DNA of 63,938 bases from a virus (lineage: Duplodnaviria > Caudoviricetes). The notes under the pieces were generated by a model. The model saw only the letters and a program-made list of their open reading frames with translations, did not search any database and was not told where the DNA came from. Positions 4,781 through 45,437 of this stretch are shown one piece after another. Where the stretch lies: the IMG/VR virus record IMGVR_UViG_3300023174_000167, positions 1-63,938 of that record; one strand, 5' to 3'. Both the position numbers and the translations under genes were made by a program. The first letter of the stretch is position 1. The number at the start of each line of letters is the position of its first letter.

Positions 4781-5177
4781 TTAATGTTTCCATATCTTGT
4801 TCTTGATAGCATTTTTTACAAATCAGGGTAGACTCAAAGAAAGTTACATATACATTACAACATATACTCATTAGTCAAAATACCCTTCTGCCCATAAACC
4901 GTCAAGAAAGTCTAATGCTTTATTAATTGCGGCTACATCTTCACCACTTGCCTCAATACCACAAAGACCGCTAATGATATCTTGAAACTGTTCTTTAGTA
5001 TAACCTAGCATTACTCACCTTCCTCAAATTCGTATCCAATAATATCAATGTGGTCAGGTTCTGTACCCTGAATTTCTTCAAGCATTAGGGTTTGGGCTTC
5101 AACCAAGGTATCAGCCTCAATCTCCCTATTCCAATAGTTATTTACTCTCTCATAGTAATCAATACTAAACTTAGGCA

Positions 5178-5761: not shown

Positions 5762-5880
5762 GGTGTATCCTTTGGTTAGTAGGTATATATTAATTTTACA
5801 CGGTTTCGGGAAAAATAGCAAGTCCTCTTAATAAGGTTTTTATGATTAATAGAATAATTAAAACCCCCGGCCCCGCCTTG

Positions 5881-5954
5881 CGATCCGTACGAGACTTGAA
5901 CTCGTGACCTCTACCGTGACAGGGTAGCGCTCTAACCAACTGAGCTAACGGACC
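5881..5954 (-). tRNA. trnD: tRNA-Asp(GTC)
   Basis: GGTCCGTTAGCTCAGTTGGTTAGAGCGCTACCCTGTCACGGTAGAGGTCACGAGTTCAAGTCTCGTACGGATCG forms a full cloverleaf with GTC anticodon; followed by CAA, not CCA. Confidence 0.95.
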
Positions 5955-5960
5955 AAGTGG

Positions 5961-5990
5961 TGAGCAGTTTTGATTCATGCTCAGGAATTT
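5961..5990 (-). ncRNA. pseudoknot motif copy A
   Basis: ATTC-C-TGAGCA-T-GAAT-CAAAAC-TGCTCA between the DUF932 stop and the tRNA. Confidence 0.7.
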
Positions 5991-6002
5991 TCTTTTGTTT
6001 GC

Positions 6003-7019
6003 TTATGCGATCTGCATAACGTCTTGTACAACTTTTAGCAAACGATTTTTTTCTGCGTTAATAGCAGGATCAAATCCGCTTGCACTTGCGAGAATAGACT
6101 CGTTATTAGAACCACGAGCAGAACGGTACCAATCAAGGCGCTCAGTTAGTGCATTGAAAGCACCCCAAGCATTGCCAGCGATCATACCATTAAATTCTCC
6201 AGTATAAATGTCGTTGATAACATCTACCTTGTTTTCCCACTTCTTGATTGAACCCTTAGCATCTTTTTCTGGCTTAGGATAAGCAGCGAGAATGATATCG
6301 TTAAATGACTTAGCGCTAACTTCTTTTTCAATCATAGCCTTAGCCATGATATCAAACTGATCCATGTAAGCATTAGCAAGACCAAGAGTCTCACGAGCAA
6401 TTTGGACTTTGCCATTAGCGGTCTGAGTGTGGCGAATTTTGAAAGATTGTTTTACGCCGTTCTTCTTTTTGATACGTCCTAACGCAAGGTTAAGAGTATT
6501 AGCGCAGACAACACGAACTGGGGTTATGCTTGCTTGAATAGCAATAGATCCATCGTGCGATGTGTTGATAAGCAAATAAGTTTTAACCTTATCTGCAACA
6601 CCGCTAGGGTCTAGGATTGTTTCACGCTCAAGAGCAAGAGCGCCAAATACTACACGCCCACCTTTAATTGAGCCAGCGGTTTCCCAACGACCCCCGCCGT
6701 CAAGAATGTTATCGCCAAATGAGAATAAATCTTCATTTTGCAATACATGATAGCGTTCACCAACTACACCAAGAACATCTGTCTGAGTGTTGTCGGTAGG
6801 ATTAGTACGTACGACATATTGGTATTCTTTGTCGCTTGTTAAGTGTGCAGGGATTGGCATATCTTCAAGACGAACGTTCCAACTATTAAGGCTTGCAGCC
6901 TCTAGCATTTCTGCAGTTGTTTTTTCTTCTGTGAATACGGTACCCAATCCATGCCAAGCAGGTTCACGAAAAGACGCAAAAGACGTTTTCCCGTTTTGTA
7001 TTTCTAGGTCATGTGCCAT
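6003..7019 (-). CDS. DUF932 / TIGR03299-like phage protein
   Basis: Motifs REPAWHGLG, WETAGSIKGG, SHDGS, TPVRVVCANTL, AWGAFNALTE. Confidence 0.9.
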   Translation of the reverse strand: MAHDLEIQNGKTSFASFREPAWHGLGTVFTEEKTTAEMLEAASLNSWNVRLEDMPIPAHLTSDKEYQYVVRTNPTDNTQTDVLGVVGERYHVLQNEDLFSFGDNILDGGGRWETAGSIKGGRVVFGALALERETILDPSGVADKVKTYLLINTSHDGSIAIQASITPVRVVCANTLNLALGRIKKKNGVKQSFKIRHTQTANGKVQIARETLGLANAYMDQFDIMAKAMIEKEVSAKSFNDIILAAYPKPEKDAKGSIKKWENKVDVINDIYTGEFNGMIAGNAWGAFNALTERLDWYRSARGSNNESILASASGFDPAINAEKNRLLKVVQDVMQIA

Positions 7020-7200
7020 GAGTTTTTCCTTTTCTGTTTTGTTGTTAATCTAATCATACACCCATCTAGCCAAAAAAGTCAAATAGGCTACGTAAACATG
7101 GGGCAAATCGGACATTTTTTCAGGTGATCTTAAACACACATCTTAAACTTGACAAGCATGGTAGGATGTGCCCGGCCCCCAAAACCTGCGGGAATTAAAA

Positions 7201-7231
7201 GTGATCAGTTTCAGTTCATGATCAGGAACTC
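7201..7231 (-). ncRNA. pseudoknot motif copy B
   Basis: AGTTC-C-TGATCA-T-GAACT-GAAAC-TGATCA. Confidence 0.7.
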
Positions 7232-7286
7232 TCACTACCATGTATATGGAACCAATATCCATGTGTATGGTTCTTGTGAAACTTGT

Positions 7287-7315
7287 TGAGCAGTTTTGCG
7301 ACTTACTCAGGTCGT
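7287..7315 (-). ncRNA. pseudoknot motif copy C
   Basis: CGAC-C-TGAGTA-A-GTCG-CAAAAC-TGCTCA. Confidence 0.7.
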
Positions 7316-7352
7316 TAGGGTTCAGGACTTTAAGTTGCCCCCCTAAGTTTAG

Positions 7353-7772
7353 TTAGAGATACTGTGCGATTTGTCGCATAGTTGAGGCATTTACTGTTTC
7401 CTCATCTGTCATCTTTAAGATGTTGAGGGCATTTTTGATTTCCTCTTTCATAGTGCGATATTCGTGGTTATGTAGAACCTCAAAATCACGCTCTGGCTCT
7501 GTTGGCAGTTCTTTTTCATTGGCTACTACAATATCATAGTCAATGTTTAATTTGTTATTGTATGCACGATATGAGGTACGGAAGTTTTCAGCCTTCTTGA
7601 TATTTGCAATAGCAAAATCCTGAAGTGCCTTGTTGTACTTTTCTCTTGCCTTATCATACTTTGCTTCGTTGGCTTCTTGGCTTGACCAATCTTTTTCTAG
7701 TTTTTCTAGACGGGCTTCTAGTGCCTTGATTACCTTTGGTGTTGCTACTTTTACTGTAATTGCTCTTGACAT
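7353..7772 (-). CDS. coiled-coil hypothetical protein
   Basis: 139-aa ORF with AAAAGGA SD and own promoter. Confidence 0.85.
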   Translation of the reverse strand: MSRAITVKVATPKVIKALEARLEKLEKDWSSQEANEAKYDKAREKYNKALQDFAIANIKKAENFRTSYRAYNNKLNIDYDIVVANEKELPTEPERDFEVLHNHEYRTMKEEIKNALNILKMTDEETVNASTMRQIAQYL

Positions 7773-7830
7773 ATATTTCCTTTTCTTTGATGGTTTATTT
7801 ATATTGTAGTGGTTGGGTCTGACATTTAAG

Positions 7831-7860
7831 TGAGCAGTTTTATATCATGCTCAGGATATT
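7831..7860 (-). ncRNA. pseudoknot motif copy D
   Basis: ATATC-C-TGAGCA-T-GATAT-AAAAC-TGCTCA. Confidence 0.7.
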
Positions 7861-7871
7861 TTATTAGGCTA

Positions 7872-8033
7872 TTATGCCTTCCAAGTTGTCCAGCGTGTGT
7901 TGCCATTTACATCTAACTTAACACGAACTGTGTTCTTGTCTGTTGGCTTGATTTCCAAGATTTGACCTGTGACCTTTGACTTCTGTGTTGTAAAGAGATC
8001 GCCGACCTTGTATGTTGCTGTTGCTACTGTCAT
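7872..8033 (-). CDS. small basic SH3/KOW-like hypothetical protein
   Basis: Start moved to MTVATATYKVGD (AAAAGGA SD). Confidence 0.75.
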   Translation of the reverse strand: MTVATATYKVGDLFTTQKSKVTGQILEIKPTDKNTVRVKLDVNGNTRWTTWKA

Positions 8034-8232
8034 TTTTTTTCCTTTTCTATTAGGTGTTGTTTTCTTTATATTTCTAGTATATCTGAGATTTCCCAGAAAT
8101 ACAATTCCATTTCCTAAAAATCTCACTATTTGAGACATTTTCCTTGTGATATAGGTCACTCATGCCCCAGCCCTGAGATTATGAACACGAGCAGGATTAT
8201 AGTTAGTATAGTTAGTGATAGCATTATTCCCC

Positions 8233-8955
8233 CTACTTTTTGGTTGCACTAAATACTATATCAGACTTCTCATAAATACACAACTTGCAGGTAGCGCAGG
8301 CAGACCCATTGCTTGAGATAAGTGGGATAGCCTTTTTATTCTCAGGACACTTAGCCCCTACCTTACCTGTTAATTCTTTCATGTCTGCTTGCCCTATAGC
8401 AAAATTTTTGGCAAGGTATGCAAGGGATATCCCATGTTCATTCTTAAGGTTAATCCCAATAGACTTATTCTCGCTATCTGTAGAATAGTATAGTGAGAGA
8501 TTAGGGATATCCTTTAGGATTACCGCTGCAGACTTGACTCTGGTATATACCCAGAATTGAATGGTAGGATTGTTTTTGATTACTTGCTTCCAAGCATGAG
8601 CATATTGATCGCTAAAAAAATCTCCGTCCCAGTGAATGCGGAATAGTAAAGGTGCTTCCTTCTTCTCGCAATCTTCAACAAACTCATCTATCATTTCAGA
8701 CAATAGCATGAGCATGGTTAGACCGTCTGCATTGCGTAGTAATTCCCAGTTATGGAGTAAATTCTTTTTTACTGTTGGGAATATCTTTTCCAATTTGCCA
8801 GCGTAGCAAACAGTTTCGCAGATAGACGTAGCGCCAGGGCATGAATAGGCTTTTCCTGCAGGTAGTCCGAATGTGTTGGCGATACTTGCTTGTTTTCCAT
8901 TAGGTGTGACGGCATTAGTTACTTTCCGATCTTTGCTTCTGAGTAATTTAGTCAT
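8233..8955 (-). CDS. GP88-like protein (mycobacteriophage gene 88 family, Cys-rich)
   Basis: FGLPAG...CPGATSICETVCYA, FRIHWDGDF, FWVYTR, C-terminal CxxCxxC. Confidence 0.8.
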   Translation of the reverse strand: MTKLLRSKDRKVTNAVTPNGKQASIANTFGLPAGKAYSCPGATSICETVCYAGKLEKIFPTVKKNLLHNWELLRNADGLTMLMLLSEMIDEFVEDCEKKEAPLLFRIHWDGDFFSDQYAHAWKQVIKNNPTIQFWVYTRVKSAAVILKDIPNLSLYYSTDSENKSIGINLKNEHGISLAYLAKNFAIGQADMKELTGKVGAKCPENKKAIPLISSNGSACATCKLCIYEKSDIVFSATKK

Positions 8956-9562
8956 GGTGGTTTACTCGCTTTCTTTCTTTAATTGTAGCAGCAGGGACTG
9001 ACTTTTCTTTCTGTTGTATTTCTTTTTGCTAGGCACCGATGAGGCAGCATTACTTCGGCGCAGCTCTAAGAGTCGCCTTAATTCCTCTGGTGTTTTTTTC
9101 ATATAATAATCTTAGCAAACTTTGGGCAAAAATACAACTCATCTTAATTAGTACAATTCGGACAATTTGCCCGGCCTTGCTAATCAGTATTAAACATTTT
9201 TAACAACTCATCAATTTGTTCATTAGTTAAATGATCAAGTTGAATTGCTTTTTCAAAACCAAATAAATCTTTTTCCATTTTACAAATCTCCCATCTCAGC
9301 ATCAGCCATGCGTGACCACATATAAAATTCAACGGGATCATGATTAGAATAAAAAACGGGATCAGCAGATGAATATCCTTTAGCACAAATAGTGCAGATA
9401 GAATAGTTAGTGCAGTAGCAGGAGTTAATATCGTTCATTAGACGACCTTTCGTTTTGGATTATTCTAATCCTAGCAGACTCAACTGACAAATGCAAGATT
9501 TGGGGGGGTTTTAATAGGGTACGTAATTGTGATCTTAGTCACACAGCCCGGCCCCGCTCCAG

Positions 9563-9802
9563 CTATTCTGTTTCTATATAAACATATAGATCAACATATG
9601 TATCGTGACTTATTGTTGCTACGTCCCGCTCACCATATGCATCGGCATATTCAATAAAATAGTTATCGCCTGTCGCATCAGAGTCAATAGATATTACCTG
9701 AATGATATCTCCATCATATCCAATTAAATCATCAACCATTAAAGAACCAGGTGTTAACTTATCTGCCCAAACTAGATCCATGCTGTTTATTGTAGCAGTC
9801 AT
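9563..9802 (-). CDS. acidic hypothetical protein
   Basis: 79-aa ORF with GGAGG SD. Confidence 0.7.
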   Translation of the reverse strand: MTATINSMDLVWADKLTPGSLMVDDLIGYDGDIIQVISIDSDATGDNYFIEYADAYGERDVATISHDTYVDLYVYIETE

Positions 9803-9926
9803 TTTATAGCCTCCACAATTACATCATCATAGCCCATTTCAATCCATTCCTGCGCCCAGTACTCTGCATCTCGTCTAGTTAGATAGTTAGAATTAATTTC
9901 ACTACCGCCAACCCAAAGTGTATACA

Positions 9927-10211
9927 TTAGTACTCTTCCTCTGGAAGCCAGAAAGATAGGTGGTGTTGTTCTACAATAGCCCAAGCAGGTGCAGTAGTTT
10001 TATTTTTATACAATATCTGAAAGTCGCCAACCATAGGCATAGCAATTTCACGATCATAGTCCTCTTCATAGTAAGCGTCAATCGCTTCTATGCAAGGCGT
10101 TACCATTTCTGCGGGGACAGGTGGATAGTGATTACCCTTAAGGTGATAAAGTATCTGAGTCTCTAAGTCTAATACTGTTTCCTGTATTCCTAACGCTGTT
10201 ACTGATCCCAT
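9927..10211 (-). CDS. hypothetical protein (HLKGNHYPPVP)
   Basis: 94-aa ORF with SD. Confidence 0.8.
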   Translation of the reverse strand: MGSVTALGIQETVLDLETQILYHLKGNHYPPVPAEMVTPCIEAIDAYYEEDYDREIAMPMVGDFQILYKNKTTAPAWAIVEQHHLSFWLPEEEY

Positions 10212-10686
10212 TACATTTTCCCTTCAATAAAGTCTAGTATTTCATTATAGGTGGTAATTTCTTCTTCTTCATCTGCTACTGAGCGCATGTCTATGATTAC
10301 ATCTATTAGATTATTTAGGTAGTGGTAGTTCATTGTCCCCGTCCAATCCCATTAGTTCCATTTCTTCAGCGTAGTCTAACGCTTCCGATACTTCGGTATT
10401 TATGAATAGCATTTAGTATTCCCCTTCTTCTATGTCTGGAGTCAAGTCTAGTGCAATAACGCACTCTTGGCAAACTGGTCGTTCAAAGCGATAGTCAAAC
10501 TTATCTTCATCTAAGTTTTCTAGGCAGTTCTCACAATAAGTTAATGTATCCATTACTTAACTTCCCAATCTTCTATTACTCCGTCAATAGCGTCCTGTAT
10601 GTCTGTATTAAACACATCTAACTCATCTGCGTTTAGTTCTCTAATAAAATCATTAGTGGGGTTAGAATACCAAGTGATAGGGTTTT

Positions 10687-10908
10687 TCATTTAACAGCCA
10701 CCTCTCCGTTACGATAGAAAGTCTTAGTGTACATCTTACCAATAGGGTCAGACAAGTTATAGGTAGCGTATTCTTTAGCATCTCCATAGTCCTTGCACAA
10801 TTCCCAAACTCTTACGGCTTCTAGCATATCGCTAAAACGGTAAGTATCGTGTAGTTTTCCGTCATAGGAAATAGTTAGTGAGTAAAAGTATTCCATTAGT
10901 CGTTCCAA
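10687..10908 (-). CDS. hypothetical protein
   Basis: ORF in operon of tiny genes. Confidence 0.7.
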   Translation of the reverse strand: MERLMEYFYSLTISYDGKLHDTYRFSDMLEAVRVWELCKDYGDAKEYATYNLSDPIGKMYTKTFYRNGEVAVK

Positions 10909-11305
10909 TCTAAGGTAAGGTTTAGTTCTGAGTCTAACACATCTGCAAAGTCATGGTCAAGTTGGCAAGACCAGCAACGCAATTCATTTACATCTACTTC
11001 ATTTTCGTTACAATCTAAGCAAGTATAAATATCCATTAGTAGTTTTCCCCCATATTCTTTTCTGCTTCCCACTCTTGACGGTGTTCTGCACACATAGTCG
11101 CAGGGCGAGATGATATTAAGTCTATCCCATATTCCTGAGCATAGCAAATATTGCAAGCCAGCCCTTGATCTGCAAGTACTTCCATTAAATTACCCATTTA
11201 GGCATTTCCTTTCTGATTAACTAAGTTAATCCTATCGTACTCCACCGACATTTTTGGGATCTTGGGGGGGGTTTTGCGGTGTGATCTTAACCACACTTAA
11301 TAGCC

Positions 11306-11325
11306 TGTGGATAACCTGTGGACGA
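11306..11325. promoter_or_regulatory. DnaA box plus degenerate second box
   Basis: TGTGGATAA-CC-TGTGGACGA; the first is the reverse complement of TTATCCACA. Confidence 0.65.
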
Positions 11326-11355
11326 CACGCCCGGCTCAGCTTTTAGTTGAAACTT

Positions 11356-11385
11356 CAAGCAGTTTTAAAACTTGCTTAGGTTTTT
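11356..11385 (-). ncRNA. pseudoknot motif copy E
   Basis: AAAAC-C-TAAGCA-A-GTTTT-AAAAC-TGCTTG, 5 nt after the stop of 11390..11569. Confidence 0.65.
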
Positions 11386-11389
11386 TTAT

Positions 11390-11569
11390 TTAGTAAGTGC
11401 TTATCATGCAAGCCTCAAAAAATTTATCTGCTTTGAAGTTTACATTATCCTCTGCAAAAAAAGCAGAGAAGTCATCAACTAAATCGTGATAAGTAAATTC
11501 ATCACCGATTAAATCTTTATAAGATGAAAGAATTTCTGCAACTGCTACATAGTCTTTGCGAGTCATCAT
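11390..11569 (-). CDS. small hypothetical protein (MMTRKDYVAVAEIL...KFFEAC), not in ORF track
   Basis: 59-aa ORF translated by hand, coupled to upstream gene. Confidence 0.8.
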   Translation of the reverse strand: MMTRKDYVAVAEILSSYKDLIGDEFTYHDLVDDFSAFFAEDNVNFKADKFFEACMISTY

Positions 11570-38833: not shown

Positions 38834-40867
38834 ATGTCAGAAAGCGTTTTTTCATTCCGTCTATCAGAAGATTTTGTAAATAAATATTCTACAGTTCCAG
38901 CTCCATTTGGTTTTTCAGATGCAGGCTCCAACTCGTTAGGAGAGATTACATTTATTCGCACATATTCTCGTGTTAAAGAAGACGGAACAAAGGAACGCTG
39001 GCATGAAGTATGCCGTCGTGTAATTGAGGGTATGTACTCAGTTCAGAAGAATCATGCTAAAGATAATCGTCTACCATGGAATGATAATAAAGCTCAAAAG
39101 TCTGCTCAGGAAGCTTTTCAAAGAATGTTTGAATTAAAGTGGACTCCACCAGGCCGTGGTCTATGGGCATTTGGAACACCTATGACTATGGAAAAGCGCA
39201 ACTCTGCTTCCCTTCAAAACTGTGCAATGGTTTCTACCCGTGATATTGATCGTAATGATCCAGGTGCATTATTTGCTTGGGTAATGGATGCATTAATGTT
39301 GGGCATTGGTGTTGGTTTTGATACCCTTGGACAAGATAAACAAATGCCTATTTATGCTCCAACCGAACCAGCATCTATTTATGAAATTCCAGATACTCGT
39401 GAAGGATGGGTGGAATCGGTTCGTCTTTTGATTAATTCTTTCCTTCGCCAGAACCAACCTATCCAAGAGTTTAACTATGATCTGATCCGTCCTCTAGGAG
39501 CACCTATTAAAGGCTTTGGTGGGGTAGCCAGCGGTCCAGCACCACTTATTGATCTACACACACGCATCCGCAATGTAATCGGTTCTAGAGCGGGAGAAAC
39601 ACTTGATAGTCGTGCAATTGTAGATATTGTAAATCTTATTGGTACTTGTGTAGTTTCAGGAAATGTTCGCCGTTCTGCTACCCTTGCACTTGGCGTTCCA
39701 CAGGATGAAGATTTTATTAATCTTAAAAATCCAGAGGTATTTGCAGAAAGAAATTCATATGATCCTAAGAAACCAGGTTGGGCATGGATGAGTAATAACT
39801 CTATTGCTGCTGAAGTAGGAACAAAGTATGAAGACTATGTTGATTTAATTGCAGATAATGGAGAGCCAGGTTTTATATGGCTTGACGTTGCTCGTAATTA
39901 TGGTCGCCTTGCTGATGCACCAGATTATAAAGATTCTAGAATTATGGGATTTAATCCATGTGCAGAACAACCACTTGAGTCATATGAACTATGTACTCTT
40001 GTAGAAGTTCATCTTAATCGTCATGAGTCTAAAGAAGATTTCTTAAAGACATTAAAGTTTGCATATTTGTATGGTAAGACTGTTACTCTTATGCCAACAC
40101 ATTGGCAACAGACAAACGGTATTATGCAACGTAATCGCCGTATTGGTACATCACTTACAGGTATTGCTGCATTTGCTGATGAACATGGTCTTCCAACTAC
40201 CCGTGAATGGATGGATGAAGGATATAACACAATCCGTAAATATGATCACCAGTATTCAGAATGGCTATGTGTTCGTGAATCAGTTCGTGTAACAACAGTT
40301 AAGCCATCAGGATCTGTGTCGCTTCTTTCTGGGGCTACTCCTGGAGTTCACTGGGGACCTGGTGGAGAATTCTATCTCCGTGCTATTCGCTTTGGCGATC
40401 AAGATCCAATGCTTCATTTGTTTAAAGCAGCGGGATATAAAGTTGAACCAGATCTAGTATCAGCAAATACACAGGTAGTATATTTCCCAGTAGCATCAGG
40501 ACACAAGCGTTCTGAAAAGCAGGTAAGCCTATTTGAAAAGATTGGTTTGGCAGCAACTGCTCAGAAGTATTGGTCAGATAATGGTGTTTCTGTAACACTC
40601 TCATTTGATAAGGAAGAAGAAAAGAAATTCGTTGCTCCAGCACTAAATATGTATGAGGGTCAGCTAAAGGCAGTTTCATTCCTTCCAATGGGAAATAAAA
40701 CCTACCCACAACAGCCATATACAGAAATCACAAGAGAAGAATATAACGCATATGTTGGAACAATTGGCAAAATTGACTGGTCTGCTATCTATGATGGCAA
40801 AGATAATCTTGATGCTGAGTCTGAGAAATATTGTTCAACCGATGCCTGTGAAATCAAGTTGTACTAA
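38834..40867 (+). CDS. nrdJ: class II (B12-dependent) monomeric ribonucleotide reductase
   Basis: PPGRG, NC, GFNPCAEQPL, TTVKPSG, C-terminal CSTDAC. Confidence 0.93.
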   Translation: MSESVFSFRLSEDFVNKYSTVPAPFGFSDAGSNSLGEITFIRTYSRVKEDGTKERWHEVCRRVIEGMYSVQKNHAKDNRLPWNDNKAQKSAQEAFQRMFELKWTPPGRGLWAFGTPMTMEKRNSASLQNCAMVSTRDIDRNDPGALFAWVMDALMLGIGVGFDTLGQDKQMPIYAPTEPASIYEIPDTREGWVESVRLLINSFLRQNQPIQEFNYDLIRPLGAPIKGFGGVASGPAPLIDLHTRIRNVIGSRAGETLDSRAIVDIVNLIGTCVVSGNVRRSATLALGVPQDEDFINLKNPEVFAERNSYDPKKPGWAWMSNNSIAAEVGTKYEDYVDLIADNGEPGFIWLDVARNYGRLADAPDYKDSRIMGFNPCAEQPLESYELCTLVEVHLNRHESKEDFLKTLKFAYLYGKTVTLMPTHWQQTNGIMQRNRRIGTSLTGIAAFADEHGLPTTREWMDEGYNTIRKYDHQYSEWLCVRESVRVTTVKPSGSVSLLSGATPGVHWGPGGEFYLRAIRFGDQDPMLHLFKAAGYKVEPDLVSANTQVVYFPVASGHKRSEKQVSLFEKIGLAATAQKYWSDNGVSVTLSFDKEEEKKFVAPALNMYEGQLKAVSFLPMGNKTYPQQPYTEITREEYNAYVGTIGKIDWSAIYDGKDNLDAESEKYCSTDACEIKLY

Positions 40868-40919: not shown

Positions 40920-41315
40920 ATGGATTCTTTAATCAACCCCGAAACTGGCGAACCAATTGTCAAAAATGTACGTAGACAGGTTATAGAAAAGAAGTATAAC
41001 TGGGGTCTTTATGTATATAAGAAGGCAAATGGAAAATGGTTTACAGATGGAAATGGCAATGTGCTGAACATAGAGTCAGTACGCAATGATCTTTCAAAAA
41101 TAACAGAACTTAAAAATGCAGCAAAGCATTATGGGGATGAAGGCGATGGAGAAGCAGTATTTGTTCCAGGCCTAACCAGAATTACTGAAGAAGAGCATTC
41201 TGAGCAAATGGATCGTATGAAGCAGGGTCTTATTCCTTCAATGAACGATCTTGGTGCATGGCATGCAGCACAACAAACCCTTAACAAGGCAGGCAAGGAC
41301 GCATTTAATGAGTAA
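40920..41315 (+). CDS. conserved hypothetical protein upstream of portal
   Basis: ATG 7 nt after TGGTATACT. Confidence 0.8.
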   Translation: MDSLINPETGEPIVKNVRRQVIEKKYNWGLYVYKKANGKWFTDGNGNVLNIESVRNDLSKITELKNAAKHYGDEGDGEAVFVPGLTRITEEEHSEQMDRMKQGLIPSMNDLGAWHAAQQTLNKAGKDAFNE

Positions 41316-42942
41316 TAGTGATTACATAGAGGCCAGACTTGGCACTACAGAAAAACCAGATAGCCAATTTAAAAATAGCGATCCATTTAATAAGTCATGG
41401 GATGAACTAAAATCTTTGGGCGGTATTGAAGAAAACTTTAAACGTCGTATGACAAGACAAGTAAACAAAGCAATGACACAAGAAGGCTACCTTGCTACTA
41501 ATGCAAACATTAATCTTCTTAGTCCGCAATATCTTGATTCAGCAAACGCAGATCCAAAAGGTCTTAAGGATTCTGGGTCTAAAGCAATCAATCCTGGTTT
41601 GGTTTACCGAAATGGCTATGGTCTTTTTGATGTAATTACCCCGCCGTACAATATGTACGAACTTGCTAATTTTTATGATACATCTTTTGCTAACCATGCT
41701 GCCATTGATGCAAAGGTAGAAAACGTTGTTGGTCTTGGATATCGTTTTGATGTAACAGATAGAACAATGATGAGTCTTGAAAATAATGCAGACCAAGCAG
41801 CAACTGCTCGTGCTCGTAATCGTATTGAAAGAGCAAAACTTGAAATTCGTGATTGGCTTGAATCGTTAAATGATGATGATAGCTTTACACGCACAATGGA
41901 AAAAATTTATACAGACCTTCAGGCAACTGGAAATGGTTACATGGAAATTGGTAGAACTGTAAGTGGAGAGATTGGATATGTTGGCCATATTCCATCAACA
42001 ACAGTTCGTGTTCGCCGTATTCGTGATGGCTTTGTTCAAATCATTGGACCAAAAGTTGTTTACTTCCGTAACTTTGGTGCTAAAAATCAAAACCCATTAA
42101 CAGCAGATAATCGTCCAAATGAAATTATTCATTTTAAAGATTATTCACCTTTAAATACTTATTACGGTGTTCCTGATATTATTGCAGCATTGCCATCATT
42201 AATTGGCGATCAACTTGCTTCACAATACAACATTGATTATTTTGAAAATAAAGCGGTACCAAGATATGTTATTACTCTTAAGGGTGCAAAGCTATCTGCA
42301 GACGCTGAAGATAAGATGTTCCGATTCTTGCAGACAGGCCTAAAGTCTCAGTCTCATAGAACCCTTTACATTCCACTTCCTGGAGATAACGATCATTCTA
42401 AGGTTGAGTTTGACATGAAGCCAATTGAAAACGGTATTCAAGATGGATCATTTAAAGAGTACCGCAAACAAAATCGTGATGATATTTTAATTGCTCATCA
42501 GGTTCCAATATCTAAACTTGGTGGTTCAGACTCTGGCGCTATTGCAGCAGCACTTGCCCAAGATCGTACTTTTAAAGAGCAGGTTTCTCGCCCAGAGCAA
42601 CAGCACCTTGAAAAGGTAATCAGCAAGATTATCAAGGAAAGAACAGATATTCTTCAGTTCAAGTTTAATGAACTTACCCTTACAGATGAAATTGCACAAT
42701 CACAAATTCTTGAGCGTTATGTTAAGAATCAGATCATGCTTCCTAACGAAGCCCGTGAAATTCTAGATCTTCCTCAAGCAGATCATGGCGATTCACCGCT
42801 TGAACTTAGCCCAAGACAGGCTGCAGATTCAAGAGCAAATGGAAATCGTTCTAGAGATGCTGAACGAACAAATAACCAATCCGATGGCTCTGCAACCATA
42901 TCTGGACGTAATCCGAAGGGTGAAGGTAGAGCATCTCAATAA
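41308..42942 (+). CDS. portal protein
   Basis: GNGY, EIIHF, YYGVP, YFENKAVP, PNEAR; start moved to MSNSDY. Confidence 0.92.
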   Translation: MSNSDYIEARLGTTEKPDSQFKNSDPFNKSWDELKSLGGIEENFKRRMTRQVNKAMTQEGYLATNANINLLSPQYLDSANADPKGLKDSGSKAINPGLVYRNGYGLFDVITPPYNMYELANFYDTSFANHAAIDAKVENVVGLGYRFDVTDRTMMSLENNADQAATARARNRIERAKLEIRDWLESLNDDDSFTRTMEKIYTDLQATGNGYMEIGRTVSGEIGYVGHIPSTTVRVRRIRDGFVQIIGPKVVYFRNFGAKNQNPLTADNRPNEIIHFKDYSPLNTYYGVPDIIAALPSLIGDQLASQYNIDYFENKAVPRYVITLKGAKLSADAEDKMFRFLQTGLKSQSHRTLYIPLPGDNDHSKVEFDMKPIENGIQDGSFKEYRKQNRDDILIAHQVPISKLGGSDSGAIAAALAQDRTFKEQVSRPEQQHLEKVISKIIKERTDILQFKFNELTLTDEIAQSQILERYVKNQIMLPNEAREILDLPQADHGDSPLELSPRQAADSRANGNRSRDAERTNNQSDGSATISGRNPKGEGRASQ

Positions 42943-42983
42943 TTGAGAAAACTCTATAAATATTTGGTATAATGGATTACGAT

Positions 42984-44297
42984 ATGAACATAAATAAGGC
43001 TTTTTGGACCACTGAAGGCGACAACGTTCGTCTTTCAATGCCCTTTGGCAAGGTAGATGTTGAAAAGAGAATTGTCTCTGGTTTTGCATCTCTTGACAAT
43101 GTTGACAAGCAATATGACATCGTTACAACAGAAGCATCAATGAGTGCTTTTGCAAAGTTCCGTGGAAACATTCGTGAAATGCATCAGCCATCAGCAGTTG
43201 GCAAAATGCTTAATTTTAAAGAAGAAAAATATTTTGATCCAGAGACAAAGAAATTCTATAAAGGAGTTTATGTCTCTACATACATTTCCAAGGGTGCACA
43301 AGATGCATGGGAAAAAGTTCTTGATGGAACATACACTGGTTTTTCAATCGGGGGACGAATGAACAAGTGGGACGATGCATATAATGAAGAACTTGATAAA
43401 ACAATTAGAATTATTAAAGACTATGATCTAGTAGAACTATCTCTAGTAGATTCACCAGCAAATCAATTTGCAAGCATCATGTCAGTTGAAAAAGTTGACG
43501 GCGTAGATGTTATTAAAGGTGAATTTGCTGATGTAGTTGTAGAAAATGTTTTTTATGATGAAGAAACAGGAATTGTTCTAACTTCTGATGAAGAAACATA
43601 CGTTAGCCCAGTAAGCGGTAACGAAATGAAAAACATTGGTTTTGTAGAAAAGAATGACTCAGAAAAAGCAAACATGATAAAGTTCTTAGTTGATAGTGCT
43701 AAAGGCATTAATACATCTAAGATTACAAAGGAGGTAAGTCCTATGACAGAAGATACAACCGCAGTTGTTGATGCACCAGTTGCAGAAGCAGAAGCAGTAT
43801 CAGCAGAGGTCACTCCAGAGGCACAACCAACAGAAGCAGTAGAACCAGCCGCAGAAGCAGAAGCACCAGTTGCTGATGCAGAAAAGTCTGATTCAATTGC
43901 TGATGATAGTGCTACATCTTCAACAGAAGATGCAATTCAGGCTCCAGAAGCTCCAGCAGCAGATGATGTTGCAAAGGCTGATGACGTAATTGCAGAAGCA
44001 ATTACAGAAATCAAGGAATCTGTTACTAATGCCTTTGGCGATCTAGCAGCAACAATTAAATCACTTAGTGATGAAGTTGCTAATATGAAGAAGTCTCTTG
44101 ATGCCACAACAACTGATGTAAATCAGATCAAGGGTACTTTTAACGAAATTGGAAAGCGAGTTGATTCCGTAGAAAAGGACACAGCTTTCCGCAAGTCTGG
44201 CGATCTAGGCGAGATCGTGCAGGAAATGGATGAAAGTCCAGTTCAAAAATCCCTATGGGGCGGACGTTTCCTCAAATTCTCCGACCTATATAACTAA
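42984..44297 (+). CDS. prohead protease fused to scaffold
   Basis: IREMH, GFSIGG, ELSLVDSPAN; acidic Ala/Glu-rich coiled-coil C-terminal half. Confidence 0.9.
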   Translation: MNINKAFWTTEGDNVRLSMPFGKVDVEKRIVSGFASLDNVDKQYDIVTTEASMSAFAKFRGNIREMHQPSAVGKMLNFKEEKYFDPETKKFYKGVYVSTYISKGAQDAWEKVLDGTYTGFSIGGRMNKWDDAYNEELDKTIRIIKDYDLVELSLVDSPANQFASIMSVEKVDGVDVIKGEFADVVVENVFYDEETGIVLTSDEETYVSPVSGNEMKNIGFVEKNDSEKANMIKFLVDSAKGINTSKITKEVSPMTEDTTAVVDAPVAEAEAVSAEVTPEAQPTEAVEPAAEAEAPVADAEKSDSIADDSATSSTEDAIQAPEAPAADDVAKADDVIAEAITEIKESVTNAFGDLAATIKSLSDEVANMKKSLDATTTDVNQIKGTFNEIGKRVDSVEKDTAFRKSGDLGEIVQEMDESPVQKSLWGGRFLKFSDLYN

Positions 44298-44324
44298 CAT
44301 AAAAATCACTAGGAGGTGAACAAT

Positions 44325-45437
44325 ATGTCAGAAGATATCGTAAAAAACTATCCAGGTACTAGCGAAGGCCACACCCATACAGGTGAAGGTTCAGTAGCAT
44401 CTGGTTCTACCGCAGACGCAGCAGCCATTGTTAATGGTCGTGTTGGCGTTATGGGTAACATTGATGGTGCAAATTACGGAACATCAGGTGCTAATGGAGT
44501 AAATCCAGTAGGTACACCTGGCGGTATCCTATTGCCTGAACAAGCTCGTCGCTTCATTGATTATGTGTGGGATGCTACAGTTCTCGCTAAGGATGGACGT
44601 AGAGTTACTATGAGAGCCAACACAATGGAACTTGAAAAAGTTAACGTTGGTGAGCGTGTAATTCGTGCAGCAGCACAAGCAGACCCTACATTCACAAATG
44701 CAGGCGCAACTTTCTCAAAGGTTGAATTGACTACAAAGAAGATTCGTCTTGACTGGGAAGTATCAACAGAAGCACTAGAAGATAACGTAGAAGGTGGCGC
44801 TCTTGAAGACCATCTCGTTCGTTTGATGACAACTGCTTTTGCAAACGACATTGAAGATCTTGCGATCAACGGTGACGGTTCAACAGGAAACTTCCTTTCA
44901 ATCATGGAAGGCTTCGTTTCAAAGGCACAGGGCGGAGACTCACACGAGTCACTCGTAACTGTTGCTGATAACAACTGGACAACTCCAGTTCTTCAGGATA
45001 TCATCCTTGCAATGCCACGTAAGTACCGTGCAATCAAGAACAATCTTAAGTTCTATGCTGGTACAGACGCATTCCAAGGTATTGTCAAGAACAACGGTAC
45101 ACTTGCTGATGCAATTGCAGAAGCATTTACACCACGTCTTGGTGGTACTGAGGCTAACCGTCAAGCATACTACGATGGTGGCGCACAGACATTTGGTGGA
45201 GCACGTACAACTCGTGTTCTCGGTGTTGAAGTTCAGGAAGTTCCTTACTACCCTGCAGGTTATGTAGATCTTACATTCCCTCAGAACCGTGTATGGGGAT
45301 TCCAGCGTGATATCACTGTAAACCGTTTCTACCAGCCAAAGAAGGACACAATTGAATACACAGTATTCGTCCGCTTTGGTATCCAGTGGGAAGAACTTGA
45401 CGCAGTTGCATTTGCAACAGCAGCAAACAATTCATAA
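44325..45437 (+). CDS. major capsid protein (HK97 fold)
   Basis: GGILLPEQ, EDLAINGD; position after protease; AGGAGG SD. Confidence 0.92.
   Translation: MSEDIVKNYPGTSEGHTHTGEGSVASGSTADAAAIVNGRVGVMGNIDGANYGTSGANGVNPVGTPGGILLPEQARRFIDYVWDATVLAKDGRRVTMRANTMELEKVNVGERVIRAAAQADPTFTNAGATFSKVELTTKKIRLDWEVSTEALEDNVEGGALEDHLVRLMTTAFANDIEDLAINGDGSTGNFLSIMEGFVSKAQGGDSHESLVTVADNNWTTPVLQDIILAMPRKYRAIKNNLKFYAGTDAFQGIVKNNGTLADAIAEAFTPRLGGTEANRQAYYDGGAQTFGGARTTRVLGVEVQEVPYYPAGYVDLTFPQNRVWGFQRDITVNRFYQPKKDTIEYTVFVRFGIQWEELDAVAFATAANNS

What the first reader, a model, noticed from the sequence alone, without database searches (positions are those of the whole stretch)
5961..11385. Five copies of a ~30-nt H-type RNA pseudoknot with covariation in both stems, just downstream of early genes
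Minus-strand consensus: S1-C-S2-W-S1'-(A-rich)AAAC-S2'. S1 pairs vary compensatorily: ATTC/GAAT (5961), AGTTC/GAACT (7201), CGAC/GTCG (7287), ATATC/GATAT (7831), AAAAC/GTTTT (11356). S2 pairs are TGAGCA/TGCTCA, TGATCA/TGATCA, TGAGTA/TGCTCA and TAAGCA/TGCTTG; the G-U wobbles work on the minus (mRNA) strand. Loop 1 C and loop 3 AAAC are invariant. Four copies lie 5-38 nt after a stop codon and the fifth follows another copy, so they are not frameshift signals. Possible roles (inference): 3'-exonuclease block or processing signal, non-canonical terminator, protein-binding tag, or mimic of pseudoknotted type III antitoxin RNAs.
Basis: partly seen in the sequence, partly recalled or inferred. Interest (0 to 1): 0.86.

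Follow-up and report, generated by a model that had tools for sequence, protein, structure and literature searches.

The report
Tiny conserved pseudoknot after phage genes
A 29-letter RNA knot that sits just behind the stop codons of five early phage genes turns out to be a very widespread, uncatalogued RNA element of phages and prophages, most likely a protective end-piece for messenger RNAs.

Summary
The window holds five minus-strand copies of S1(4-5 bp)-C-UGAGCA-W-S1'-(N)AAAC-UGCUCA. No Rfam 15 family matches. Both stems covary. The S1 pairs were 137/137 paired with four pair types. For S2, 112/114 and 96/101 variant copies keep the pair. C-G, loop-1 C and AAAC stay invariant where no pattern imposed them.

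The element lies on the sense strand, anchored to the upstream stop codon. There is a sharp wall at 8 nt (d=8: 25, d=9: 24, d=7: 1, d=0-4: 0 of 221), while the distance to the next start is loose.

It directly precedes first-in-array tRNAs (27/84 against 0/36 internal), type III hammerheads that cut 5 nt behind it, and DUF2800 RNA.

Best reading (about 0.4): a 3' boundary cap left on the upstream cistron after processing. The function is inferred, not shown. The antitoxin-mimic idea is not supported.

The parts
5961..5988 (-). Pseudoknot copy 1: ATTC-C-UGAGCA-U-GAAU-CAAAAC-UGCUCA. It lies 14 nt after the stop of the DUF932 gene and 6 nt before tRNA-Asp.
   Evidence: (47.0 bits)
7202..7230 (-). 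Pseudoknot copy 2: AGUUC-C-UGAUCA-U-GAACU-GAAAC-UGAUCA. S2 position 4 is changed on both sides (G:C to U:A). It lies 56 nt behind copy 3.
   Evidence: (31.4 bits)
7287..7314 (-). Pseudoknot copy 3: CGAC-C-UGAGUA-A-GUCG-CAAAAC-UGCUCA. It carries a U.G wobble in S2, possible only on the minus-strand RNA. It lies 38 nt after the stop of ORF 7353-7772.
   Evidence: (39.3 bits)
7831..7859 (-). Pseudoknot copy 4: AUAUC-C-UGAGCA-U-GAUAU-AAAAC-UGCUCA. It lies 12 nt after the stop of the 53-aa ORF 7872-8033.
   Evidence: (46.9 bits)
11356..11384 (-). Pseudoknot copy 5: AAAAC-C-UAAGCA-A-GUUUU-AAAAC-UGCUUG. It lies 5 nt after the stop of the 59-aa ORF 11390-11569.
   Evidence: (32.1 bits)
5880..5954 (-). 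tRNA-Asp (GUC), the RNase P substrate that starts 6 nt after copy 1.
6003..7019 (-). DUF932-family gene whose 3' end carries copy 1. The order gene - motif - tRNA-Asp recurs in related lake phages.
   Evidence: cluster of 35 upstream proteins
7353..7772 (-). 139-aa gene followed by copies 3 and 2.
   Evidence: cluster of 16
7872..8033 (-). 53-aa gene followed by copy 4. Read from the ATG behind a purine-rich stretch; the ORF listing gives a longer GTG frame, 7872-8159.
   Evidence: cluster of 14
11390..11569 (-). 59-aa gene followed by copy 5.
   Evidence: cluster of 7

Best explanation
The five repeats are copies of a small, conserved H-type RNA pseudoknot that is transcribed as part of the phage mRNAs. 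This part is shown by covariation. Its layout is:
- S1: 4-5 bp of free sequence, closed by an invariant C-G.
- Loop 1: a single invariant C, crossing the deep groove of S2.
- S2: 6 bp, usually UGAGCA/UGCUCA.
- One junction nucleotide.
- Loop 3: A-rich, ending in an invariant AAAC, running along S1.

Inferred function: it marks the 3' edge of a cistron. It is placed as close behind the stop codon as a terminating ribosome allows. When the transcript is cut just downstream, it stays on the upstream mRNA as a compact 3'-terminal structure that hinders 3'-to-5' exonucleases. The cut can come from RNase P at a following tRNA, from a following hammerhead, from other nucleases, or in some copies from termination at a U-run. 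The role would be the one hairpins at RNase III sites, REP elements and terminator stems play elsewhere. Because it needs no phage-specific partner, it can work in hosts of many phyla.
For: Structure:
- In 137 aligned copies the two central S1 pairs are paired 137/137 with four Watson-Crick types each. 98.4% of cells pair against 83.2% in shuffles (0 of 500 reach it) and 23-39% when partners are slid.
- Scans that forbade the usual base at one S2 position returned 103 G:C, 9 G:U and 2 mismatches of 114. At the next position they returned 79 A:U, 9 U:A, 8 C:G and 5 mismatches of 101.
- In copies not selected by any scan pattern, 46 of 46 with CC..G have AAAC, and 46 of 47 with AAAC have CC..G.
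- G is almost absent at +1 and +2 (2-3% against 20% background). A G there would pair with the two Cs and destroy loop 1.

Strand: wobbles occur only on the gene-sense strand. 116 of 259 copies lie between two same-strand genes.

Belongs to the upstream gene:
- 202 of 216 copies have a same-strand frame ending within 150 nt upstream.
- With frames of 60 codons or more, the distance from stop to CC is 8 nt in 25, 9 nt in 24, 7 nt in 1 and 0-4 nt in none of 221. The same wall appears in the viral and the cellular sets.
- The distance to the next start is broad: median 64 nt, 5-95% range 18-260, n=147.
- Copies at convergent gene ends outnumber those at divergent starts, 13 to 5.

An end is made just behind it:
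- 25 of 216 copies lie 3-12 nt before a tRNA and 0 of 216 lie just after one.
- The motif precedes 27 of 84 first or solitary tRNAs and 0 of 36 internal ones.
- In L133 two successive genes are each followed by the motif and then a type III hammerhead (50.5 and 41.2 bits) whose cleavage site is 5 nt after S2'.
- The same layouts are seen against deposited annotation in Arthrobacter phage Molivia (SSB gene, then motif, then tRNA-Gly) and Nostoc phage NMeng1.

The window's early region has no ordinary terminator-like site near these gene ends. The scan found only one weak minus-strand site, at 5682-5665.
Against: - No RNA ends were seen; no RNA run holds the window.
- A mere mechanical block does not explain why S2, loop 1 and AAAC are held nearly constant across hosts of many phyla, when ordinary stabiliser hairpins drift freely.
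- The S2 hairpin alone is weak, about -6 kcal/mol, with z from 0 to -3.
- In several cellular loci the motif is followed within 20-40 nt by a normal intrinsic terminator. That would make a cap redundant. In those loci a 20-codon ORF ends at the UGA inside the motif.
- In Saccharibacteria a 14-codon ORF reads through most of the motif, which there sits in a 5' leader.
- In Firmicutes-type phages it lies between portal or minor-head genes and the scaffold and capsid genes. There a benefit to the downstream, highly expressed genes would make as much sense.
- 20 of the 27 tRNA cases are tRNA-Asp of related phages, so they are not independent.
Confidence: 0.4

Rival explanations
1. Termination-coupled switch or insulator. 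The element works with the terminating ribosome. With the stop codon in the A site, the ribosome's front edge reaches the S1 5' strand and abuts loop 1 and S2. Each termination therefore opens S1. The invariant G then has a second invariant partner, the C of AAAC, which extends S2. The RNA would report whether the upstream cistron is being translated. Alternatively it shields the folding of the next RNA (tRNA, ribozyme, DUF2800 RNA) from ribosomes.
For: - The wall at 8 nt is measured to CC, not to the start of S1. d=8 is the commonest value for S1 of 3, 4 and 5 bp alike: (8,3) 11, (8,4) 23, (8,5) 8.
- 8-9 nt is about the length of mRNA a bacterial ribosome covers beyond the A-site codon (recalled from toeprint and profiling literature, not from a call).
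Both are invariant.
- Micro-ORFs that end inside the motif exist in cellular genomes.
- The ribosome is the one partner common to hosts of every phylum.
Against: - A wall at the ribosome's edge is also expected if the element merely has to stay out of the ribosome's way in a compact genome.
- About a fifth to a third of copies lie more than 30-45 nt from the stop (40 of 202; 68 of 221).
- No output of such a switch can be named.
- There is no frame preference (mod 3: 61, 52, 35).
Confidence: 0.2
2. Barrier or 5' cap for the downstream RNA. The knot blocks 5'-to-3' decay (RNase J), or 5'-end-dependent entry of RNase E or Y, coming from the upstream cistron. It would stabilise what follows, in the manner of viral exoribonuclease-resistant RNAs.
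For: - It sits directly in front of structured or highly expressed downstream units: scaffold and capsid genes in phiEF-1.1, D6E and B236/phiETA.
- It abuts the 5' end of DUF2800 RNA in 7 loci.
- A loop-3/S1 triplex would resist pulling from the 5' side (inference from known H-type pseudoknots).
Against: - Where a tRNA or a hammerhead follows, cleavage separates the knot from the downstream RNA.
- Its position is tied to the upstream stop, not to the next start.
- Copies at unit ends outnumber copies at unit starts, 13 to 5.
Confidence: 0.1
3. Specific binding site for a small molecule or a conserved protein. In size and topology it resembles the preQ1-I riboswitch, with invariant unpaired C and A residues at the helical junction that could hold a ligand.
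For: - The conservation pattern is that of an aptamer: a free-sequence stem, invariant loop residues and a near-invariant second stem.
- The same core is kept in chromosomal leaders with micro-ORFs.
Against: - No Rfam riboswitch model matches, even at E up to 10 on 61 nt.
- The junction has one nucleotide, and it is variable (T18, A17, C8, G3).
- Upstream genes fall into 107 clusters of 210, and the downstream units are of several kinds: tRNAs, ribozymes, DUF2800 RNA and genes at widely varying distance. No regulon appears.
- There are up to five or more copies per phage early region, placed behind genes rather than before them.
Confidence: 0.1
4. Unusual transcription terminator. Formation of S2 in the RNA exit channel, followed by a U-run, releases RNA polymerase.
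For: - T-runs of 5 or more within 15 nt are 3.7 times as frequent as after other gene ends (10.4% against 2.8%). Runs of 6 T occur in 6.6% against 1.1%.
- The upstream flank is A-rich.
- No ordinary terminators are seen near these gene ends in the window's early region.
Against: - About 90% of copies have no U-run; only copy 2 in the window has TTTT.
- Most copies are followed by same-strand genes, or by tRNAs that must be co-transcribed.
- S2 has only three G-C pairs.
Confidence: 0.07
5. Decoy of a pseudoknotted type III antitoxin or another anti-defence RNA mimic.
For: It is a pseudoknot of antitoxin-like size, in several copies, in an early region. Three CRISPR arrays hold spacers containing the motif, so hosts do meet it.
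Against: - The copies are dispersed (spacings 85-3525 nt), not tandem.
- The same sequence serves phages of many phyla, while antitoxin repeats are system-specific (recalled).
- It also occurs in chromosomal, non-phage settings.
- No toxin-like gene was seen among the 7 window neighbours scanned.
Confidence: 0.03

Closest known systems
Compact H-type frameshifter pseudoknots of luteovirids (BWYV type); recalled from the literature, not from a call
   Same: Same architecture on the same scale. Short S1, a very short loop 1 carrying a conserved C, one extruded junction nucleotide, and an A-rich last loop lying in the S1 minor groove. It starts about 4-6 nt beyond the codon held in the A site.
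   Different: Here the A-site codon is a stop codon. There is no slippery heptamer and no overlapping frame. S2 is 6 bp rather than 3. The carriers are DNA phages of bacteria (with hits also in two Methanobrevibacter MAG contigs), and there are several copies per genome.
preQ1-I riboswitch (RF00522)
   Same: The smallest known natural aptamer: an H-type pseudoknot of about 34 nt with a free-sequence P1 and an A-rich tail ending ...AAAAC before the P2 3' strand.
   Different: No match to the Rfam model. The junction loop is 1 nt instead of 4-6 nt with the ligand-pairing C. S2 is 6 bp. The element is anchored behind genes, not in front of a defined regulon.
3' stabiliser structures of bacterial and phage mRNAs: T7 RNase III-site hairpins, REP elements, terminator stems (recalled)
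   Same: They sit between or after cistrons, remain at the 3' end after processing, and block 3' exonucleases. This is the role proposed here. Multiple copies occur in a phage early region, as in T7.
   Different: Those are plain hairpins whose sequences are lineage-specific. This one is a pseudoknot with near-invariant loops, shared across many phyla. The cut behind it is made by RNase P substrates or hammerheads rather than by RNase III.
Exoribonuclease-resistant RNAs (xrRNAs) of flaviviruses and plant viruses (search listings only)
   Same: Small, protein-independent viral pseudoknots whose fold stops an exonuclease. Conserved nucleotides serve the fold rather than a partner.
   Different: xrRNAs stop 5'-to-3' enzymes with a ring around the 5' end and are larger. 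The direction and any resistance of the present element are untested.
ToxI and other type III antitoxin RNAs (recalled)
   Same: Pseudoknotted RNA units of about 34-36 nt. Phages are known to carry mimics.
   Different: Antitoxins are tandem arrays next to a toxin gene and are processed by it. Here the copies are dispersed behind unrelated genes.
tRNA-associated small ribozymes of phages: theta (HDV-like) ribozymes (PMC10879173, passages read) and hammerheads
   Same: The same neighbourhood: small structured RNAs that flank phage tRNAs and define RNA ends without host proteins.
   Different: Theta ribozymes are proposed to cut tRNA 3' trailers. This element lies only 5' of the first tRNA, matches no ribozyme model, and in L133 relies on a separate hammerhead for the cut.

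Membership tests
H-type pseudoknot (structural class) | Two helices in crossing topology, each supported by compensatory changes | tested here: met
   S1: 137/137 paired at two columns, with 4 pair types each. S2: 112/114 and 96/101 variant copies keep the pair.
Any curated Rfam 15 family | Match to a covariance model at its gathering score, or at least a weak match | tested here: not met
   Only tRNA reaches threshold in the window. Nothing on the motifs at E up to 10 in 6 kb. Nothing at all on 61 nt around copy 4.
preQ1-I riboswitch | Match to RF00522 | tested here: not met
preQ1-I riboswitch | Lies in a 5' leader, with its 3' strand controlling the SD or terminator of a queuosine-related gene (feature recalled) | tested here: not met
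   Anchored 8-12 nt behind upstream stops. Distance to the next start ranges from 14 to over 700 nt. Upstream genes fall into 107 clusters.
-1 frameshift stimulator | Slippery heptamer 5-9 nt upstream and an overlapping -1 frame (feature recalled) | tested here: not met
   A stop codon, not a slippery site, lies upstream. Loop 3 varies from 4 to 9 nt in steps of one. No frame preference.
Type III toxin-antitoxin antitoxin RNA | Tandem array of the repeat unit | tested here: not met
   Start-to-start spacings are 1241, 85, 544 and 3525 nt.
Type III toxin-antitoxin antitoxin RNA | Adjacent ToxN/AbiQ-type endoribonuclease gene | tested here: inconclusive
   Pfam on 7 neighbouring window proteins shows DUF932, GP88 and a weak phiKZ_IP match only. 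Small neighbours were not all scanned, and PADLOC was not run.
Intrinsic terminator | G+C-rich stem directly followed by a U-run | tested here: not met
   A T-run of 5 or more within 15 nt occurs in 10.4% of 259 copies (controls 2.8%), so a minority only. The consensus scan calls none of the five window copies.
Self-cleaving ribozymes (hammerhead, twister, pistol, hatchet, HDV-like) | Match to the family model or core | tested here: not met
   No match on the motif itself. The hammerheads found are separate elements downstream. Cleavage activity cannot be tested here.
mRNA 3' stabiliser or exonuclease block | Stalls 3'-to-5' exonucleases and prolongs the half-life of the upstream RNA | not testable with these tools
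   Only positional evidence is available. No RNA data exist for the window.

The most novel reading that the evidence does not exclude
The element is a new, self-contained class of functional RNA that works with the terminating ribosome itself, a partner shared by hosts of every phylum. Each termination would open S1 and flip the invariant G from one invariant C to the other. The fate of the message, or of the RNA that follows, would then depend on whether the upstream gene is being translated. Alternatively, its invariant junction residues hold a ligand, which would make it the smallest natural aptamer.
Probability: 0.2. Interest if true: 0.92.

Novelty: new variant of a known kind. Interest (0 to 1): 0.8.

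Why it matters
If the reading is right, phages of very different hosts share one portable 29-nt module that sets the 3' edge of a message and needs no phage protein.

- **An annotation gap.** Hundreds of copies at least, in uncultured and cultured phages, in prophages, and even in CRISPR spacers, have no Rfam family. Adding one would fill that gap.
- **Phage mRNA processing.** It would show how phage polycistronic RNAs are cut into stable pieces next to tRNAs and ribozymes.
- **A practical part.** It could serve as a tiny, host-independent stabiliser or insulator for synthetic operons.
- **Ribosome geometry.** The razor-sharp 8-nt spacing from the stop codon is an unusually clean natural read-out of ribosome geometry at termination. 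It makes the coupling between termination and downstream RNA structure directly testable.
- **Structural biology.** The near-perfect covariation in a 29-nt RNA makes it an attractive target for structure determination.

Tried and rejected
**Rfam.** The whole window at gathering score, 6 kb at E up to 10, and 61 nt at E up to 10 gave nothing on the motif.

**Megablast.** The 5.8-kb region against the phage collection gave no match.

**Tools and data that gave nothing.**
- Sequencing runs: no RNA holder is listed for the window. Read laying was therefore not used, since DNA contigs cannot show RNA ends.

**Literature.** Six full-text searches returned no listed title or abstract describing this motif. 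I read passages only, by term search, in PMC5737381, two 2026 bioRxiv preprints, PMC10690425 and PMC10879173. None mentions it. In particular, PMC10690425 lists a candidate (DNAVirus_1850) found 27 times, once overlapping a tRNA-Asp prediction.

**tRNA-acceptor mimic ending in CCA (RNase P or CCA-enzyme substrate).** CCA is the commonest trinucleotide after S2' (22 of 213). That is close to what the single-position frequencies predict (about 14), and most cases are related tRNA-Asp loci. Dropped.

**A shared partner protein.** Upstream genes fall into 107 clusters of 210. Of 20 representatives scanned, 3 had a PHROG with a named function (RNR, minor head protein, SSB). No common family was found.

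**The 20-aa micro-ORF family.** No NCBIfam hit, and only a sub-threshold Pfam zinc-ribbon hit.

**The gene behind the Saccharibacteria copy.** No Pfam family.

**S. aureus phages.** B236 and phiETA carry only a weak variant (19.5 bits, S2 of 4 bp). 80alpha has none in the 8 kb scanned. I do not count these as members.

**E. coli genomes.** No BLAST hit with one S1 variant. This is a weak search and no evidence of absence.

**Chance hits.** My loose sequence-free pseudoknot scan shows that pairing alone is common by chance. By eye, roughly ten of the genome-contig hits lie inside ORFs without S1 and are probably chance (about 13 expected by my own arithmetic).

Full report
**What is in the window.** On the minus strand, five stretches of 28-29 nt fit one scheme: S1 (4-5 nt, always ending in C), a C, a six-base S2 strand, one base (A or U), S1' (starting with G), a short A-rich loop ending AAAC, and S2'.
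- The copies lie at 5988-5961, 7230-7202, 7314-7287, 7859-7831 and 11384-11356.
- A joint pattern finds exactly these five on the reverse strand and nothing on the forward strand or with the reversed control.
- The repeat finder returns them as its largest family.
- The two halves taken singly are not enriched, and pairing alone is common by chance. The evidence in the window is therefore the joint pattern plus the compensatory differences among copies.
- The copies follow the stops of ORFs 6003-7019 (DUF932), 7353-7772 (two copies), 7872-8033 and 11390-11569, by 5-38 nt.
- Copy 1 ends 6 nt before tRNA-Asp at 5880-5954.

**Not catalogued.** Rfam 15 reports only the tRNA at gathering score. It reports nothing on the motifs at E up to 10 in 6 kb, and nothing on 61 nt around copy 4. 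Six literature searches and term searches in five papers found no description. I saw listings and passages only, and supplements are closed.

**It is a large family.**
That gave 139 copies, 132 of them distinct.
- Two scans that forbade the usual base at one S2 position also ran into the limit, at 120 and 119 stretches.
- A scan of one genome per prokaryotic species gave at least 118 stretches. They span many bacterial phyla, often Saccharibacteria, and include two Methanobrevibacter MAG contigs.
- Roughly ten of those hits lie inside ORFs without S1 and look like chance.
- The flanking genes I scanned there are phage-like or mobile-element-like: minor capsid protein 2, ArdC/IrrE, Toprim.
- BLAST plus my covariance model found the motif in cultured phages: Mycobacterium phage Labelle (42.9 bits), Paracoccus ParMal1, Nostoc NMeng1, Synechococcus S-EIVl, Arthrobacter Molivia, Lactobacillus phiEF-1.1, Microcystis Mwe-JY13, thermophilic phage D6E and Moorella MTATph1.
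- S. aureus phietaviruses have only a weak variant, and 80alpha has none in the stretch scanned.

**The pseudoknot is real.**
- In the 137-row alignment, S2 and the closing C-G were fixed by the search in 132 rows and so say nothing. The three free S1 pairs, however, are paired 137/137, 137/137 and 111/133, with four to six pair types.
- The whole structure has 98.4% of cells paired, against 83.2% in shuffles (0 of 500 reach it) and 23-39% with slid partners.
- 109 of 132 copies have S1 of 4 bp or more.
- For S2, a scan that required only CC, G, S1 and AAC gave a bimodal count of S2 pairs: 155 placements with 6 of 6, and a chance hump at 1-3.
- The two unbiased variant scans gave 103 G:C, 9 G:U and 2 mismatches of 114. 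At the neighbouring position they gave 79 A:U, 9 U:A, 8 C:G and 5 mismatches of 101.
- In copies not selected by any pattern, AAAC goes with CC..G in 46 of 46, and CC..G with AAAC in 46 of 47. The junction base is free (T18, A17, C8, G3).
- G is nearly excluded at +1 and +2 after S2' (2-3%). This fits the need to keep the two Cs from extending S2.
- Wobble pairs occur on the gene-sense strand only.
- The geometry follows the classical rules for H-type pseudoknots: one nucleotide across a 6-bp deep groove, and three or more A-rich nucleotides along a 4-5-bp shallow groove (recalled knowledge).

**Where it sits.**
- The element has the orientation of its neighbours. Of 259 copies with S1 of 4 bp or more, 116 lie between two same-strand genes. 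13 lie at convergent ends and 5 at divergent starts.
- 202 of 216 copies have a same-strand open frame ending within 150 nt upstream.
- The distance from that stop to the first C of CC has a wall. With frames of 60 codons or more it is 8 nt in 25 copies, 9 nt in 24, 7 nt in 1 and 0-4 nt in none of 221. Viral and cellular sets agree.
- Annotated records agree with my crude ORF calls. CDS ends lie 6-7 nt before the model match in Labelle, Molivia, S-EIVl and ParMal1.
- The next start codon is at a loose distance: median 64 nt, n=147.
- Upstream genes are diverse. They fall into 107 clusters of 210, including DUF932, RNR, SSB, minor head and Hsp20-like proteins.

**What follows it.**
- 25 of 216 copies lie 3-12 nt before a tRNA, and none lie just behind one.
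- Over all loci the motif precedes 27 of 84 first or solitary tRNAs and 0 of 36 internal ones. 20 of the 27 are tRNA-Asp of related phages.
- In L133 two consecutive small genes are each followed by the motif and then a type III hammerhead (50.5 and 41.2 bits). Stem III of the hammerhead begins at the last base of S2', and the cleavage site is 5 nt further on.
- L007 and one site in L191 look alike by eye. In all, 6 of 340 copies have a hammerhead-like core within 110 nt downstream and 0 of 340 have one upstream.
- In 7 of 20 loci chosen by eye, the motif abuts position 1 of DUF2800 RNA.
- U-runs follow in about 10% of copies, against 3% of controls.
- The window's early region shows no ordinary terminators near these gene ends.

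**Interpretation.** Shown: a conserved RNA pseudoknot, in the sense orientation, tied to the upstream stop codon, often directly followed by a site where the RNA is cut. Inferred: it stays on the upstream cistron as a protective 3' end.

I give this reading about 0.4, for four reasons.
- No ends were observed.
- Mechanical protection does not explain the near-invariant S2 and loops.
- Some settings argue otherwise. A 20-codon ORF with a strong SD ends at the UGA inside the motif and is followed by a normal terminator. A 14-codon ORF in Saccharibacteria reads through the motif in a chromosomal leader.
- In Firmicutes-type phages it sits just before the scaffold and capsid genes.

The wall at 8 nt is measured to CC whatever the S1 length, and the invariant G has two invariant possible partners. 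These two facts keep a ribosome-coupled switch alive as the main rival. A 5' barrier, a ligand or protein site, a terminator variant and an antitoxin mimic follow in that order.

**Novelty and score.** As far as my searches reach, the family is undescribed. In kind, it is a new and unusually conserved variant of intercistronic or 3' RNA structure. If the ribosome-coupled or ligand reading is right, it would be a new class. Interest 0.8.

Noticed in passing
window 7124-7140, 9529-9545, 11281-11297 (plus-strand coordinates), with flanking GGCCGGGC blocks near 5870, 7170, 9170, 9555 and 11335: A second repeated intergenic block lies in the same early region. Read on the minus strand it runs GGCCGGGC ... 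TGTGT.TTAAGATCAC ... C-run, followed by -35/-10-like hexamers (for example TTGACT-18-TATGAT at 7082-7053 and TTGTCA-17-TAGAAT at 9490-9462). These are probably early promoters with a shared upstream operator-like element. Two of the pseudoknot copies lie just upstream of such blocks.
   Followed up: partly
L146, L148, L172, L177, L206, L216, L139, L175, L208 (MAG contigs of Aminicenantes, Deltaproteobacteria and others): A conserved 20-codon micro-ORF, M-[KR]-x-x-x-x-P-[RH]-x-A-H-C-x-[ES]-G-C-x-x-x-S, has a strong SD. Its stop is the UGA inside the motif's CC-UGA-GCA. It is followed 20-40 nt later by a normal intrinsic terminator. There was no NCBIfam hit and only a sub-threshold Pfam hit. A sister form (L159, L189, L213, L180) stops at a UAG 1 nt before CC.
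   Followed up: partly
L143 3755-3830 (also L125, L151, L168, L205; Saccharibacteria MAGs): A 14-codon ORF (MSSDxEQWxGPEHD) reads through S1, loop 1, S2 and S1' and stops at the UAA in loop 3. An SD and the start of a 138-aa gene with no Pfam family follow 12-20 nt later. The setting is chromosomal, next to valS and a HIT-family gene.
   Followed up: partly
L164 about 6020-6044, L165 about 5082-5106, L242 about 211-235: The whole motif lies inside what look like CRISPR spacers, with identical repeats on both sides. The arrays are in a Leptolyngbyaceae cyanobacterium, a Cloacimonadota MAG and a third MAG.
   Followed up: no
L022 285-445, L149, L161, L195, L197, L215, L223: DUF2800 RNA (RF02960, 121-160 bits) begins at the base right after S2' of the motif. 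The motif may be an unrecognised 5' extension or a regular companion of that family.
   Followed up: partly
L133 7271-7325 and 7541-7595 (minus strand): Two type III hammerheads flank a 51-codon gene, each directly behind a pseudoknot copy. The RNA between the two cleavage sites would carry a 5'-OH and a 2',3'-cyclic phosphate. The upstream copy has the doubly compensated S2 UGAGUA/UACUCA.
   Followed up: partly
L170 6637-6691 (Nocardia nova contig): Two copies lie back to back. The end of the first copy's S2' (variant GAGAG/CUCUU) overlaps the second copy's S1. Compare window copies 3 and 2, which are 56 nt apart.
   Followed up: no
L247 1492-1530 (S. aureus phage B236) and L248 (phiETA): A degenerate motif-like sequence (CGAC-C-UUAGCA-U-GUCG-UUAAAC-UGCUUC followed by a U-run) lies 9 nt after the minor head protein gene. 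In B236 it is annotated as a BPROM-predicted promoter, P5R.
   Followed up: partly
window 41251-45437 and 38834-40867: The portal protein is 45% identical to those of large Streptomyces siphophages, although the window has low G+C. The window also encodes ribonucleotide reductase, a head maturation protease and a glycosyltransferase. The record is an IMG/VR contig estimated 59% complete, and its sequence is held by lake and freshwater metagenome runs.
   Followed up: no
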